Below are positions 21,839 to 27,800 of a stretch of DNA of 64,000 nucleotides, piece after piece. Position numbers: made by a program. The stretch's first letter is position 1. Each line of letters begins with the position of its first letter. This DNA comes from Podarcis tiliguerta (taxonomy: Eukaryota): NCBI GenBank assembly GCA_965153285.1, contig OZ229121.1. The stretch is one strand, 5' to 3'.

Positions 21839-24800
21839 TACCAGATAGATAGATAGATAGATAGATGGATGGATAGATAGATAGAATCCCATGCACACTT
21901 CTTGGGGAATAAGTCCCACTCAACTCACCGTGCTAAAGCAAGAAAATCCCCAATTGCCCCGCATCAGCCACGCTGAAGCGCCCTTGCGTCCGCACTTAGG
22001 GCAGCTGACAGGAAGGAGGTGGCAGCCCAGCTCCGCGCCAGCCCACGCAGCATCTTTTGCCGGCTGCTCCCCCTCCCCCTGACCAGGCTCAGGAAGCCCC
22101 CCTCCCTCCCTCCCGTCTCTCAGGCGCGCCCCTCCCCCTTGCCTTTCATGTTGCATGCAAGGTGCGCTCGTGCCAGGTGAGCAGCGCGCGCCCTTAGCGC
22201 TGCGCGACAGGTGGGCGCCTCTGGGCAGATTCCCCCCCCCTCCAGGTCACGCGCGCGCAAGACGCAGGCGGAGAGGGCTCTTGCCGGGCACCTGTTGAAG
22301 AGAGCACCTGCCGGCTGAGGAGAAAGCAAGCGAAGGCGCGTCCTCGTGGGCTCTCACCTGTGCGCCGGAGAAGCGTCTCTTCTTCTTCCTCCTCCTCTTC
22401 TTTTTCTTCTTCCCCCTGAGAAGCGGGGCTGGAGGGAGTCAGTCCATCCTCTCGCCGAGAGCGTCGTTACCTGGGCGTCCTTCTCTGAGGGAACTACTCG
22501 CTGCCGCAGCAACAGGCTGACTCTTGAGAGCGCGAGCGAGCCAGGGGAACTTGGCCTCCTTCCGGCGCCCGCCCGCTCCAAAAGGGAGCGCCAACTTTCG
22601 CAGGTGAAGAACAATCCGCCGTCGGAAGCCGGCCTTTCAGCTAGCCGTCTCTAGGGACGACCGCGAGCTGCTGGGGGGGGGGGGCGCTTGGGAAAGAGCG
22701 GCCGCGCTGTAAGGGAGCCAGCTTTCTCTCGCGCGCGCTTTTCGTGGCGAGGGAATCCCACCCGCCCGACTCACTTTCCTCGAAAGGTCTGAGCGGTGCA
22801 CCTGATGCTCAGGCAACAAGGAAGCAGGTGCAGGTGAGCCCTCGAGAAGGGACCCCGCCCCTTCTCCTCCTCCCTAAACGGGATTGGTCCCTCTCGCAGT
22901 GGCAGCTGGACAACGATTGGCCTGGGAAGAAGAAGAAGGAGTAGTAGCACGGTATAAATCAAGAGGCGAAGGGAGTTACAGGGCACAACTTTGATCTCTT
23001 TTGGAAGCTGGCCATGGCGGCAGCACACAACTTGGCTCCCTTCCTCAGCCCTGCGCTGATTTCCTTGTAATGCTGTCATGAGTTCTCCCCGCTTCTGGCA
23101 GTCTTGGTGCCCATGTGACCATTTGGCTAGGAGCAGGGATGAGAGAGAGCCAGGCACAGCCGTTCTCTTAAGGCTTCGTAAAACCCTGCTTGTTTCGTGG
23201 AGTGCTTTCCGTTGCCCACATTTTGTGTGGTGTTTTAGGCCGAGTGTTCCCAAGTTGTGATAAGTCTTAGGATGTGTCTGTAGGGGGTGGTTGTCTGGGC
23301 TCTGGGGGCTGAACTAGTGTGCCTGATTCACCCAGGCAACCCTAAGCAATCACAGCAAAACTGAAGCGGCTGCAGAGTCCACATGTCCCACAAAACACGG
23401 GATAACACAGCAGTTCCTGTTAATGGGCACTTCTGCAACCAGAATGCTCCTTTGCAGAGCTAGCTGGGGTTTTTTTTGCCCCGGGTGAAGGTTTCAGAGG
23501 GGCACCATTGAGGCTCCCCACTGTATGTATTTGAAATTGCGTGGGGTGCCGCCAAACAACTGGGTCTTTGATCCCACACACTTTCTTTGTATGAAGTTTT
23601 AACAAATTTGAGAGCATTTCCAAGTAAACTTGTGTAAGATCTGGCTGTATATTCATAGGAGTGTTTTTTTAAGTGAAACAGGTCATGTGCAGTGGCTTCA
23701 GGCAATAGTGTGAAGGCAGCGCTGCCCAATAGTCGAATGCTGGCCTTGGGCACTTGAGATTTGAGTTAACAATTAGATAGTTTTGGGCAAGTCATTAATT
23801 TTCACAACCTGGATCTTATCTATAAAAAACTCTCCTCATTCTAGAGAGCTCACCATTTATCTATCCTGCCACCTAAATCTCAAAATAATTTGAGAATTTC
23901 TTTCTCCACAACAGATTCCAGCCCTCAGGAATTTAAGGATGGTGTGTACAAGCAGCAATTGTTTTAGCCGCGTCTGGTATGTGTGTGCAACTAAACCTGG
24001 AAGCGACCCAAAAACGTCATGAAAGCATCACAAAAGGAGCAGAATGGGACAGGGGCGGGGACGGAATGGGGGCTTTTCCAATGGTGTTTCAGATATATGC
24101 AATTTCACTTAAACACATGGTGCCATGGAATGTAATCGCCATGTAAATTGGGAGTTGCCTGTATAATAAAATAAGCAGGTTCTTTGAGCTTCTCTGAAGT
24201 TGTTTTAGGAAGGGAGCCTTGCAAGGTACCTGAGACAGGGAACAGGTGGGCACAACAGAGTTAGCATGATGGATACAAAGAGCATTGGAGGGCTTTCTGA
24301 ACTTGTTGAAAGTTATCAGTACAAAACAGTCGCAAGATTTCACACGGACTTCAGAAGACCTTTATGCACTTCTTGTGTTTATATAGTAGCAGTTTAGTTG
24401 GAAATGAAGACACTGTGTCCTGTTACTGACCCCTTTAAAGGCCTTGATATATTTGCCACCAGTCTACAGGCTCGCAGTGTACTTAAGAGTTTGGAGATGC
24501 ATCAGAGAGCACAAGAGACGCTGGGGAATGTGTGTCAGGGATGTTTGTATGTGAAGTTCAAGGTACGCGAAGTACCCTTCCGCAAATAAATTGCGGAAGC
24601 CCACCAGTGAAATGATGGCTTTTTAGGCAGAGATCAGTTCTACCTCTTGAGACCTCATTGCCAGATTTCAGTATGGACTTTGGGCACAGCGCTGGGAAGT
24701 ATTATGTAGTCATTGTATTATGTACAATGCATCTTGAGCTCAAAAAACAAACTGGCAAAACCAGTTTCCATAAAATAGTACAAGAAGAAACTTCTGTAAT

Positions 24801-27800
24801 ATAGTTCAGCGTGTTTTCTCATTCAGGCACTTAATAAGCCTTTGAATAATGTGATTCAACATACTGAGAGCCATGTGGAAGAAAAGGAAATAATAAAAGG
24901 GAGTACATTTCTTGGATAACATAATGTAGCTTTCTTCCATACTTGAGTTTTGTATTAAAATTGGTAAGATAATGATAGGTGACTGTAGTACTTAATACCA
25001 GGAAACTAAAACATAAAATATAGTATCTTCTATCTTGTTAAGATAGGCAAAGGAAAGAGAAACATGGTCAGGTGAAATGTAGGAAGTTGTATGAATCTTA
25101 GAACACCTGATAAGTCTATATATTATTTGAATTACTTTTATATTAGTTCTAGCAGCAAAATCATTTTTAAACAATTTGTTGCATGTAAACTGTATGAAAA
25201 ATGTGCAGATCCTTAAACCAATTTTTTTTAAAAAAATGCATAGAGAAACCAAGTGTTTTCGCTTGCAGTGAAAATTACAGACAGGGACTCAACACATTTA
25301 ATGGGATATTTCTCCCCCCTTTCCATTTACACTATCATAAATTACAAAGCATATTTCACTTCACAAAATAAAACCATTTCCATACCATTTTATGACAGTA
25401 TTTAGTACATAAACCTACAACAATTGAAATCTGTACAACTTAGGAGAATCCCTTCTAGCATTGTACCAGCAAAGCAGACCTCACTTACATCTGGCCTGCA
25501 GCCTGGGTCTGTCTACTTAGCCCTTGGTGACCTATGTAAAGGATAACTGATATACATTATTTCATGTGCCTCCTTTTGTCTTTACTCTTTCTTCATTATC
25601 CATGTTGCACACTCCCCACCCCAATTTTAATAGAAACCTATGCTCCCTGAAATAATTCAGAAAACAGCATAATTGGGTTTTGAAACTTAGGATTTGTACA
25701 AATCAAGAGCAGAGCTCAATAGAGTCTTTTGTATTGCAAATTCAGTTTCGTAATAAACTATGCTACCTTTGTGTTTGAAATATTTGTACAAAAAAATCTC
25801 ACGATGAGAAAATTCCATGTGAGAAAAAAGTCTAATATTAGGATGAATTTCATTATATTGCATTGAGAGGTCAACCTTTTGAAAGATACCCCCCCCCCCG
25901 AGATTTGGTAATATACCAATTCTCTATCCTTCACCTCTCTTTCCTTTATTAACAAATTTGTCAGAAGACACTGAAGAAAAGTGTGTAATTTTACAGATGT
26001 TTTACTTTTATAAATACAGAAGCAAAGTAATGCAACTTGATTTTTAGAAATAATAATAAAAAATTAACCCTAAATAAGTGCTAACTTTTAAGCAAGGCCA
26101 GGTAATATCCAATATTCTGGCATCACTTATTTTAAACATTACTGTACTCCAAAAAATGTGTTACGTGTAGTAGTTGATGCTAGTGTCTGTTTATAAACCT
26201 TTGAGCTCCTCTTTTTGGAAGGAGGTGGATAAATAGAATATCTTATTTGTATACCTCTAAAAGCAAAGAACATGAATTGCTAGAACATAACAAACCAAAT
26301 AATATTAAGATGAGCATGAGAAATGAAGTCTCATTAAAAGCATTTGCAATGAAAGAGGTATGTCAGGGTAATACTGCACTAGTGGTAAATGTTTTCAATA
26401 TCCATAGCAATAATGCTTAAGAGAACTATACGGAAAGTCATCAATGCACCGCATTGAATTATATCTTGCTAAAATAAAACGACATTCCTGCAGCTAACTA
26501 AAATAAAAATATACTTTAAATACATGTTTGTTTCCATTTAGACATAGTATAATTATGTCTTAATTAGAAAGAAATCGTATACCCCTATAAAAACTAATAC
26601 TGACAAACAACCTGATCCTTAAGATATCGGACAAGATAAAATATCCTGAAGGTAGGGTCTTCCTTTTCTCCTGTGTGAATAGAAATGCTGCCCATGTACC
26701 TTGGAAGTCGAATGGAATCCATTCCGGAAGTCCGTTTGACTTCCAAAGCGTTCAAAAACCAAAGCACGGCTTCTGATTGGCTGCAGGAAGCTCCTGCAGC
26801 CAATCAGAAGTCACGGAAGCCCTGTTGGATGTTCGGCTTCCAAAAGAATGTTCGAAAACCGGAACAGTCACTTCCAGGTTTCGATCGTTCGGGAGCCAAA
26901 ACATTCGAGAACTAGGCAGTTCGAAAACCAAGGTACGACTGTATACAGAAATTCTTTGTTCTGATACAAGGCATTATACAGTTCATAGAAGAGAACCAGG
27001 AAGACCCTGCCTGTACAGAAGCTCTGCTTGGAATCAGATCATGGACATTGTTACAATCCTACTACTTAATTTGCCATTATTTTCAGTAAGAGGAACACAA
27101 CTGAAATAGTAGAGAGCATGTCTTGAGCGCTACATTATGGTTGTCATGGGGAAAATAAATCCCATCAAGTCCAATTCCACTTATTTCCACATAACTACCA
27201 TGATCTAGAAATCATTGCATGCCAAAGCAGGATGCAAGAAACCTGTCCCCCCCCCATATATGGTTTACCCTCCTTGAATCAAGGTTTACAACTACAATCT
27301 TACAAGTCTGCTATGCTGACCCAGTTCTTTTCAATAGGAACTGTGCCAGCATAGTACTTTGAGCATCAGGTTGAAAGTACCTTTTTGCTTCAATGATCTA
27401 AATAAAATACAAAGTTTGTGTCCTTTAATAAGTTACAGTAGAACAGTCTGTAACCTTTCTACATCGTTAACACTGGAAGCAAGGCAAAAGATACAAGGCA
27501 AGATGCTTTTCTTCTGACCTTTGTTCTTTCTTAAATAATTAAAAAAGAGGCATATGTCTATAAGACATACCCTTTTAACTAAATGTTTTGGTGTTCATCT
27601 GCAACACTGCAGAAAATAATGTGCTACCCTTTTTTTTTCTTATGGGAATTTGTTTTCCCTTTGAACTTGTGTTTTCATAGCAGATGGCCATGAGTTTATA
27701 GCTTTGTTCATTTAAAACAAAACATCTTCATTTTCTATCAATATTTGCACAATGAGTTTCTGGTACCGCATGTCATTGAGTGTCGCAAGAGTGCTGTCTT

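What the first reader, a model, noticed from the sequence alone, without database searches (positions are those of the whole stretch)
22174..27609. Both arms of the ZEB/miR-200 switch appear to target two adjacent genes in opposite directions
Within about 5.5 kb, the CHN2 3'UTR carries miR-200 sites (predicting repression in epithelial cells). The next gene's promoter carries a dense ZEB-type E-box cluster (predicting repression in mesenchymal cells). The ZEB/miR-200 double-negative loop is established. That CHN2-PRR15 forms a reciprocal two-gene readout of it, perhaps helping to explain the conserved linkage, is inference. It could be relevant to EMT in lizard tail regeneration.
Basis: inference. 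Interest (0 to 1): 0.75.

Follow-up and report, generated by a model that had tools for sequence, protein, structure and literature searches.

The report
E-box island beside miR-200-targeted CHN2
In a lizard, the tail of the CHN2 gene carries four miR-200 binding motifs and a CpG island between CHN2 and PRR15 holds ten E-box motifs, both more than chance gives, but tying them to one epithelial-mesenchymal switch remains a plausible guess.

Summary
CHN2 and PRR15 lie on the minus strand of a lacertid-like window. CHN2's stop codon is at 27712-27714. The first 1.34 kb after it holds three 8mer and one 7mer-m8 miR-200-family seed matches (4 observed, 0.67 expected; all 3 minus-strand 8mers of the 64 kb).

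A CpG island at about 22000-22900 holds 9 CACCTG/CAGGTG and 1 TACCTG in 663 bp (0.27 expected; 0 of 5000 shuffles reach 9). No repeat carries them.

- The island lies 7.4-8.1 kb upstream of the PRR15 start codon.
- Its best-defined core promoter (CCAAT, CCAAT, TATA) points away from PRR15.
- A second CpG island abuts the PRR15 coding exon.
- CAGGTG is also bound by SNAI factors and E-proteins, and it overlaps the 5' splice-site consensus.
- The end of the 3'UTR is inferred.
- Conservation across species could not be tested.
- CHN2-PRR15 linkage belongs to a block of at least nine genes in chicken and cattle, so it needs no special explanation.

Verdict: two credible candidate regulatory features of known kinds. 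The reciprocal two-gene switch is untested inference.

The parts
27712..27883 (-). CHN2 last coding exon, with stop codon TAA at 27712-27714
   Evidence: Translation. The acceptor AG lies just upstream. 53 of 56 residues match PDB 1xa6_A beta2-chimaerin residues 411-466, E 3.7e-30. 100% identical to Podarcis, Lacerta and Sceloporus CHN2.
25925..27711 (-). Inferred CHN2 3'UTR; the end is set by the only minus-strand AATAAA (25945-25950)
   Evidence: Poly(A)-signal scan. Alternative ATTAAA signals lie at 27424, 25626 and 25297. No transcript data.
27603..27609 (-). miR-200a/141 7mer-m8 seed match
   Evidence: Predicted accessibility is at the 11th percentile of the UTR.
27468..27475 (-). miR-200a/141 8mer seed match
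   Evidence: Accessibility at the 83rd percentile.
26595..26602 (-). miR-200b/c/429 8mer seed match
   Evidence: Accessibility at the 76th percentile. Outside the interspersed repeat.
26369..26376 (-). miR-200b/c/429 8mer seed match
   Evidence: Accessibility at the 32nd percentile. Outside the interspersed repeat.
26695..26943 (.). Interspersed repeat inside the 3'UTR, between the two pairs of seed matches
   Evidence: 78% identical to 55122-55358.
22000..22900 (.). CpG island (GC 0.60-0.70; CpG observed/expected 0.54-0.57 at 21900-22199, then 0.77-1.02 at 22100-22899)
   Evidence: 0 of 8 stop-free ORFs in or beside it match Pfam. No tandem or dispersed repeat structure.
22174..22836 (.). Cluster of ten CAGGTR E-boxes (starts 22174, 22208, 22289, 22305, 22355, 22468, 22601, 22799, 22825, 22831)
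22883..22959 (+). Core-promoter array: ATTGG (CCAAT on the other strand) at 22883 and 22916, TATAAAT at 22953-22959. It predicts a plus-strand start near 22985.
   Evidence: GC-boxes (CCGCCC) at 22569, 22762 and 22855. The predicted start is inference.
22357..22774 (-). Span holding the three minus-strand donor-like sites (GT at 22774, 22470 and 22357) that could end a non-coding PRR15 exon 1
   Evidence: Matches of 7-8 of 9 to the recalled donor consensus. No transcript data.
14348..14825 (-). PRR15 coding exon: acceptor AG at 14827-14826, ATG at 14743, stop at 14348-14350
   Evidence: sequence. Pfam ATAD4 PF15321, E 3.5e-14, 54.4 bits against a cut-off of 25. 95% identical to 'proline-rich protein 15 [Podarcis muralis]'.
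14000..15100 (.). Second CpG island, over the PRR15 coding exon and about 300 bp upstream; rival proximal promoter
   Evidence: CpG observed/expected 0.76-1.09. A donor-like TCG|GT at 14892 would give a 67-nt intron (inference). It holds 1 CACCTG/CAGGTG.
28960..54261 (-). Upstream CHN2 exons. tblastn bounds: 28960-29151, 29241-29378, 33222-33380, 35861-36043, 39973-40071, 53785-54261.
   Evidence: tblastn of the named reptile proteins P0005, P0006 and P0007 against the window. Bounds are alignment ends, not splice sites.

Best explanation
These are two separate cis-regulatory features of known kinds that happen to be neighbours.

(1) CHN2 mRNA (minus strand) most likely ends about 1.8 kb after its stop codon. 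It carries four canonical miR-200-family seed matches, so it is probably repressed by miR-200 wherever that family is expressed. The sites are shown. The extent of the UTR and the repression are inferred.

(2) A CpG island 4.9 kb beyond the CHN2 stop codon and 7.4-8.1 kb upstream of the PRR15 ATG is most likely a promoter that fires in both directions. The plus-strand start is set by CCAAT-CCAAT-TATA. The minus-strand start would give the non-coding first exon that the acceptor at 14827-14826 requires. The island's ten CAGGTR boxes make its activity depend on CAGGTG-binding factors: ZEB/SNAI-type repressors, competing with E-protein activators. The motif cluster is shown. Promoter identity, direction and the binding factor are inferred.

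Both features could be outputs of the ZEB/miR-200 circuit. Nothing shows that they are coupled or that they explain the linkage.
For: - Gene identity and strand.
- E-box excess: 9 observed against 0.27-0.47 expected, 0 of 5000 shuffles. CACCTG is the top over-represented 6-mer. No repeat carries the sites. CACCT half-sites: 11 against 1.66, 0 of 2000 shuffles.
- Seed-match excess: 5 of 1000 shuffles reach 4. 40 of 172,032 sibling-seed pairs have 3 or more 8mers in this UTR. Poisson against the window background gives 8.6e-4 for canonical sites and 2.9e-5 for 8mers.
- The PRR15 coding exon begins at a strong acceptor 82 nt before the ATG, so an upstream exon is needed.
- The island has three donor-like sites on the PRR15 strand.
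- Human literature, passages only: CHN2 is listed among predicted targets of miR-200b-3p and miR-200c-3p (PMC5776778). PRR15 is inversely associated with VIM and SNAI1 in breast cancer (PMC10113191) and 'inhibited in the EMT pathway' (PMC7880379). The paralogue PRR15L sits with CDH1, ESRP1 and GRHL2 among epithelial genes (PMC4062414; PMC3794600).
- The gene symbol PRR15-DT occurs in print (search listing only).
Against: - No transcript, binding or cross-species data could be consulted.
- The CCAAT-CCAAT-TATA array points away from PRR15.
- A second CpG island abuts the PRR15 coding exon, and a 67-nt intron is possible there.
- Every CAGGTG also matches the core of the 5' splice-site consensus. 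Six of the ten boxes score at least 7 of 9 as donors (two further donor-like sites lie outside the boxes), and donor-like sites as a class are enriched (8 against 1.95).
- Measured by canonical sites, 1239 of 172,032 sibling-seed pairs (0.7%) do as well as miR-200. That would not survive correction for about 100 conserved families (that number is recalled).
- Predicted accessibility of the four sites is mixed: percentiles 11, 83, 76 and 32.
- An ATTAAA 283 nt after the stop could give a short mRNA that lacks the two 200b/c sites.
- PRR15 correlates positively with CDH2 in thyroid cancer (PMC9218104).
Confidence: 0.42

Rival explanations
1. The island is not PRR15's promoter. It drives a separate plus-strand non-coding transcript running towards the CHN2 3' end, or it is an orphan island. 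PRR15 starts in the proximal CpG island at about 14.9-15.1 kb.
For: The two CCAAT boxes and TATAAAT are spaced as a classical plus-strand core promoter. The first plus-strand AATAAA follows at 24165, which would give a short transcript. The proximal island reaches about 300 bp upstream of the coding exon, and a donor-like site gives a 67-nt intron. I recall the human gene as compact with two exons; no tool confirmed this.
Against: The proximal donor matches only 6 of 9 consensus positions (my reading), and 67 nt is near the lower limit for vertebrate introns (recalled). Between 14800 and 22000 only one minus-strand donor-like site reaches 8 of 9 (21928), whereas the island holds three at 7-8 of 9. 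CCAAT boxes work in both orientations (recalled).
Confidence: 0.3
2. The E-boxes are activator sites for E-proteins with tissue-specific bHLH partners (neuronal, lymphoid or muscle). They are not repressor sites read by ZEB. This rival does not exclude the best explanation.
For: CAGGTG is the E-protein site as much as the ZEB or SNAI site (recalled). Four of the ten boxes have G just 5' of CAGGTG. CHN2 itself is a neuronal and lymphoid gene in mammals (recalled).
Against: Only 2 CAGCTG boxes accompany the 9 CACCTG. PRR15 and PRR15L behave as epithelial genes in the human passages read.
Confidence: 0.3
3. The excess of CAGGTG reflects 5' splice-site-like (U1-binding) sequence around a promoter that fires in both directions, not transcription-factor sites.
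For: Donor-like 9-mers are enriched: 8 against 1.95, and 1 of 1000 shuffles reaches 8. They lie on both strands.
Against: Four of the ten boxes score below 7 of 9 as donors. The enrichment is sharpest for the hexamer itself. The five plus-strand donor-like sites lie upstream of the predicted plus-strand start, where they could not act on that transcript.
Confidence: 0.1
4. The miR-200 seed matches are chance or non-functional.
For: By canonical-site count, 0.7-1.5% of sibling-seed pairs do as well. If the UTR is taken as 4.7 kb, 52 of 1000 shuffles reach 4. Two of the four sites are poorly accessible.
Against: Three 8mers occur in 1.34 kb, against none elsewhere on that strand in 62 kb. 40 of 172,032 pairs match the 8mer count. 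Human CHN2 is also a predicted miR-200b/c target.
Confidence: 0.2
5. One reading: CHN2 and PRR15 form a reciprocal two-gene readout of the ZEB/miR-200 loop, and this helps to keep them linked.
For: Both motif sets are real. PRR15's likely 3'UTR has no miR-200 site. The genes are linked in lizard, deer (consecutive locus tags FD755_012442 and FD755_012443), chicken and cattle.
Against: The linkage covers a block of at least nine genes. No expression or conservation evidence exists here. Promoter assignment and factor identity are open.
Confidence: 0.07

Closest known systems
ZEB/SNAI-repressed epithelial promoters (CDH1; the miR-200b~429 and miR-200c~141 promoters); recalled, no comparator sequence fetched
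   Same: Several CACCTG/CAGGTA boxes lie in or next to a core promoter of a gene expressed in epithelia. Paired boxes occur at short spacing (34, 16 and 6 bp here).
   Different: Ten boxes over 663 bp is denser than the three to six I recall for those promoters. The start site and the target gene are not established, and no occupancy or expression data exist for this locus.
Multi-site miR-200 targets (ZEB1 and ZEB2 3'UTRs); recalled
   Same: Both sub-families (200a/141 and 200b/c/429) have sites in one 3'UTR, mostly 8mers.
   Different: There are four sites rather than the eight or nine recalled for ZEB1/2. The spacings of 134 and 226 nt lie outside the cooperative range I recall. Conservation was not tested.
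Bidirectional CpG-island promoters with NF-Y CCAAT boxes and a divergent non-coding transcript (the human symbol PRR15-DT exists; listing)
   Same: A CpG island, two CCAAT boxes 33 bp apart, GC-boxes, and donor-like sites on the gene side.
   Different: A TATA box is unusual for such islands. No divergent transcript has been shown here.
PRR15L, paralogue of PRR15, member of human epithelial signatures
   Same: Same Pfam family (ATAD4). It is expressed with CDH1, ESRP1 and GRHL2 and lost in mesenchymal-like lines (passages).
   Different: It is a different gene at a different locus. For PRR15 itself the human passages are mixed.

Membership tests
beta-chimaerin (CHN2) | C-terminal RhoGAP exon closer to beta2- than to alpha-chimaerin | tested here: met
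   104.8 bits to 1xa6_A (Beta2-chimaerin) against 78.9 and 77 bits to N-chimaerin chains. 100% identical to named lizard CHN2 proteins. Six further exons were placed by tblastn.
PRR15 | ATAD4/PRR15 domain, and best hits named proline-rich protein 15 | tested here: met
   PF15321, 54.4 bits against a cut-off of 25. 95% and 92% identical to Podarcis and Zootoca PRR15. It lies next to CHN2, as in deer, chicken and cattle.
miR-200-family target | Canonical 7-8mer seed match on the sense strand after the stop codon | tested here: met
   Three 8mers and one 7mer-m8. The seed motifs are recalled.
miR-200-family target | The sites lie within the mature mRNA's 3'UTR | tested here: inconclusive
   Only poly(A) signals could be scanned: AATAAA at 1762 nt and ATTAAA at 283, 2081 and 2410 nt after the stop. 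There is no significant strand asymmetry of signals.
miR-200-family target | Sites conserved in orthologous UTRs | not testable with these tools
   No vertebrate genome collection was on hand. The only indirect hint is that human CHN2 is listed as a predicted miR-200b/c target.
miR-200-family target | mRNA falls where the miRNA is present, or Argonaute occupies the sites | not testable with these tools
   No expression or CLIP data.
ZEB-repressed epithelial promoter | Two or more CACCT(G) boxes | tested here: met
   Ten CAGGTR boxes and 11 CACCT half-sites.
ZEB-repressed epithelial promoter | The boxes lie at the transcription start of the regulated gene | tested here: inconclusive
   The island is 7.4-8.1 kb from the PRR15 ATG. 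A rival proximal island exists, and the core-promoter array points the other way.
ZEB-repressed epithelial promoter | ZEB occupancy, and expression opposite to ZEB | not testable with these tools
   None of the 7 papers opened out of the 20 that hold both PRR15 and ZEB1 shows binding or regulation. Supplements were closed.
CpG-island promoter | GC above 0.5 and CpG observed/expected above 0.6 over more than 200 bp, with core-promoter elements | tested here: met
   GC 0.60-0.70 and observed/expected 0.77-1.02 over 22100-22899. CCAAT twice, TATA, and GC-box three times.

The most novel reading that the evidence does not exclude
The island is a shared control point. ZEB-type repressors would shut off PRR15 on one strand, and they would also shut off a divergent transcript that runs antisense towards the miR-200-targeted CHN2 3'UTR. 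The two neighbours would then be wired in opposite senses to the epithelial-mesenchymal switch, and the arrangement would be kept across amniotes.
Probability: 0.07. Interest if true: 0.6.

Novelty: new member of a known kind. Interest (0 to 1): 0.3.

Why it matters
If confirmed, PRR15 would join the short list of genes with very dense ZEB/SNAI-type promoter boxes. CHN2, a Rac-GAP, would become a multi-site miR-200 target. That would give two new, easily read markers of epithelial against mesenchymal state in a reptile, where such markers for wound epidermis and blastema are scarce. As it stands, the finding yields candidate sites, not a new mechanism.

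Tried and rejected
- **Repeat origin of the E-boxes.** Rejected. TRF finds only (TCT)n and short simple repeats. The repeat finder finds no family that carries the boxes. Self-BLAST finds no other copy of the island in the window.
- **Coding exon hidden in the island.** 0 of 8 ORFs match Pfam.
- **Known RNA family in the window.** 0 matches at Rfam gathering scores.
- **Strand asymmetry of poly(A) signals as evidence for the UTR.** Not significant: 543 of 1000 shuffles have as few.
- **Site accessibility.** Mixed and uninformative. 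The first script failed.
- **Virus-like stretch.** Of 36 stop-free ORFs scanned with Pfam, 1 passed a curated cut-off (PRR15). Two sub-threshold rows (WH_2nd_NFRKB at 18.4 bits, DCX at 17.8 bits) were taken as chance.
- **Cross-species conservation of either motif set.** Not possible. The only genome collection open holds bacteria and archaea.
- **Literature.** Ten searches were allowed and 8 were used. Fifteen papers were opened, at passage level only. Several 'PRR15' hits were in fact PRR15L. None shows ZEB binding at PRR15 or a validated miR-200-CHN2 interaction. Gene lists in supplements, where such data usually sit, were closed.

Full report
**What the window is**

The window has no N. 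Its proteins match lacertid lizards best. The PRR15 ORF is 95% identical to 'proline-rich protein 15 [Podarcis muralis]' and 92% to Zootoca. The CHN2 exons are 97-100% identical to Lacerta agilis beta-chimaerin where alignment is clean. Human-labelled and unnamed protein rows were not fetched or used.

**Genes**

Both genes are on the minus strand.

- CHN2's last coding exon is 27883-27712, with stop codon TAA at 27712-27714. Its 56 residues match PDB 1xa6_A (Beta2-chimaerin, residues 411-466) at 53 of 56 positions, with 104.8 bits against 77-79 bits for N-chimaerin chains.
- tblastn of three named reptile chimaerins places further exons at 28960-29151, 29241-29378, 33222-33380, 35861-36043, 39973-40071 and 53785-54261.
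- The exons were searched one by one.
- PRR15 is the ORF 14743-14348 (131 aa; Pfam ATAD4, E 3.5e-14). A pyrimidine tract and AG at 14827-14826 lie 82 nt before its ATG, so a non-coding exon must lie upstream, at higher coordinates.

**The E-box cluster**

- Ten CAGGTR boxes lie between 22174 and 22836: 9 of the window's 44 CACCTG/CAGGTG, plus one TACCTG.
- Dinucleotide shuffles expect 0.27 in those 663 bp, or 0.47 in 22001-23000. 0 of 5000 shuffles reach 9.
- CACCTG is the most over-represented hexamer of that kilobase. The only other CANNTG class present is CAGCTG, twice.
- Eight other GC-richer kilobases hold 0-3.
- No tandem or dispersed repeat carries the boxes, and no other copy of the region is in the window.
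- The boxes sit in a CpG island: GC 0.60-0.70 and CpG observed/expected 0.77-1.02 over 22100-22899.
- 0 of 8 ORFs in or beside the island match Pfam.

The cluster is real and unlikely to be an accident of composition.

**Whose promoter is it?**

At the right edge of the island the plus strand reads ATTGG (22883), ATTGG (22916) and TATAAAT (22953-22959). Three GC-boxes lie at 22569, 22762 and 22855. This is a classical CCAAT-CCAAT-TATA array. It predicts a plus-strand start near 22985, pointing away from PRR15 and towards the CHN2 3' end. The first plus-strand AATAAA follows at 24165.

On the PRR15 strand the island offers three donor-like sites at 22774, 22470 and 22357, matching 7-8 of 9 consensus positions. 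Between 14800 and 22000 only one minus-strand site (21928) reaches 8 of 9. A promoter firing in both directions, with PRR15's first exon on the minus side, therefore fits. The human symbol PRR15-DT exists (search listing).

It is not shown, however. A second CpG island (14000-15100) covers the coding exon and about 300 bp upstream, and a weak donor at 14892 would give a 67-nt intron. The E-boxes are 7,431-8,093 nt from the ATG.

**Which factor?**

CAGGTG is read by ZEB1/2, SNAI1/2 and E-proteins alike (recalled). The flanks are mixed. The hexamer is also the core of the 5' splice-site consensus. Six of the ten boxes score at least 7 of 9 as donors, and donor-like 9-mers as a class are enriched (8 against 1.95; 1 of 1000 shuffles). 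The sequence alone cannot name the factor.

**The miR-200 sites**

- After the CHN2 stop codon the sense strand carries a 200a/141 7mer-m8 (27603-27609), a 200a/141 8mer (27468-27475) and two 200b/c/429 8mers (26595-26602, 26369-26376). The seed motifs are recalled.
- In the 1787 nt down to the only minus-strand AATAAA (25945-25950), shuffles expect 0.67 sites, and 5 of 1000 reach 4.
- Among all 172,032 pairs of heptamers that differ at one position, 1239 have 4 or more canonical sites in this UTR, and 40 have 3 or more 8mers.
- The rest of the minus strand has 12 canonical sites in 62.2 kb and no 8mer. The plus strand has 17 sites and four 8mers. Poisson P is 8.6e-4 for canonical sites and 2.9e-5 for 8mers.
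- All four sites lie outside the one interspersed repeat in the UTR, 26695-26943.
- Weak points: the UTR end is inferred, and an ATTAAA 283 nt after the stop would drop the two 200b/c sites. Predicted accessibility is mixed. The canonical-site measure would not survive correction for about 100 conserved families (a recalled number).
- PRR15's likely 3'UTR (AATAAA at 13297 and 13224) holds none of the window's 16 minus-strand canonical sites.

**Literature (passages only; supplements closed)**

- Human CHN2 appears among predicted targets of miR-200b-3p and miR-200c-3p in an endometriosis network (PMC5776778).
- PRR15 is inversely associated with vimentin and SNAI1 in breast cancer (PMC10113191). 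It is described as 'inhibited' in the EMT pathway (PMC7880379). It marks a 'lower crypt-like' colorectal subtype (PMC3840702).
- Against this, PRR15 correlates positively with CDH2 in thyroid cancer (PMC9218104).
- Its paralogue PRR15L is in the NCI-60 epithelial consensus (PMC4062414). It is silenced together with CDH1, ESRP1 and GRHL2 (PMC3794600).
- No passage read shows ZEB binding at PRR15 or a validated miR-200-CHN2 interaction.
- For tail regeneration, the only hit concerned miR-200a in axolotl spinal cord (PMC12174470).

**Linkage**

- CHN2 and PRR15 carry consecutive locus tags in Muntiacus reevesi (FD755_012443 and FD755_012442).
- In the rows for Sceloporus, Tachyglossus, Ochotona, Cynocephalus and Phodopus, the two proteins have the same longest-contig length.
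- In chicken and cattle, 1-Mb intervals list both genes together with TRIL, CREB5, WIPF3, SCRN1, FKBP14 and PLEKHA8.

The linkage is part of a large conserved block and needs no regulatory explanation.

**The virus-like stretch**

- The only retroelement-like coding remains I could recognise are tails of a LINE-type second ORF. The first is a 316-aa stop-free ORF at 1558-2505 (minus). Its nearest Atlas clusters are chordate proteins, of which 24-36% carry RVT_1 (score 0.92).
- Shorter, 5'-truncated copies lie within 45700-46428 (85% identity) and 58549-58797 (74%). A weak match (41%) lies at 51245-51406.
- No stop-free ORF tested keeps a reverse-transcriptase or any viral Pfam domain. Of the 36 ORFs scanned, 1 passed a curated cut-off, and that was PRR15.
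- The stretches are described as they stand.

**Verdict**

The reading is partly supported: these are two credible candidate sites of known kinds. Assignment of the island to PRR15, the identity of the binding factor, coupling of the two genes and conservation of the motifs all remain open.

Noticed in passing
window 1489-2914 (-), 45700-46428 (+), 58549-58797, 51245-51406: LINE-type retroelement remains. A 316-aa stop-free tail of the second ORF lies at 1558-2505; its Atlas neighbours carry RVT_1 in 24-36% of members. Shorter 5'-truncated copies follow at 85%, 74% and 41% identity. No Pfam domain is retained in the ORFs tested.
   Followed up: partly
window 53785-54261 (-): A long CHN2 exon, 97.5% identical over 159 aa to the N-terminus of a 406-aa Lacerta agilis beta-chimaerin. 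It is absent from the 443-aa SH2-containing forms, so it looks like an alternative first exon with an internal promoter.
   Followed up: partly
window 14000-15100: Second CpG island (GC up to 0.74) over the PRR15 coding exon and about 300 bp upstream. It holds only one CACCTG/CAGGTG.
   Followed up: yes
window 61526-62131 (+): A 202-aa stop-free ORF inside a CHN2 intron. Its Atlas neighbours are SCAN-domain-3 / FAM200-like proteins with the hAT dimerisation domain (score 0.95; PF05699 in 21-53% of members). It has no Pfam hit of its own. It is probably a decayed hAT transposase tail.
   Followed up: partly
window 1140-1481, 12092-12459, 15344-15575, 17876-18225, 28609-28748, 36855-37221, 50398-50761: Seven copies (72-90% identical) of a SINE-like repeat of about 350 bp, in both orientations. 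Two of them lie between the PRR15 coding exon and the E-box island.
   Followed up: no
window 27996-28145, 45275-45426, 56527-56677, 63628-63757, 6662-6730, 5135-5188: A palindromic repeat of about 140 bp that looks like a MITE. One copy lies in the last CHN2 intron, about 110 bp upstream of the last coding exon.
   Followed up: no
window 6442-6658: A smaller group of four CACCTG/CAGGTG in 217 bp, next to a MITE-like repeat, about 7.7 kb beyond the PRR15 stop codon.
   Followed up: partly
window 28240-28640: GC-rich stretch in the last CHN2 intron with internal direct (28263-28322 / 28381-28440, 90%) and inverted repeats. Long ORFs on both strands look like composition artefacts.
   Followed up: no
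window 45424-45615 and 47203-47394: A direct repeat of 192 bp at 94.8% identity, flanking the LINE fragment and about 1.8 kb of sequence. Its origin was not worked out.
   Followed up: no
window 21808-21885: (TAT)n and (AGAT)n microsatellites bound the left side of the E-box island.
   Followed up: no
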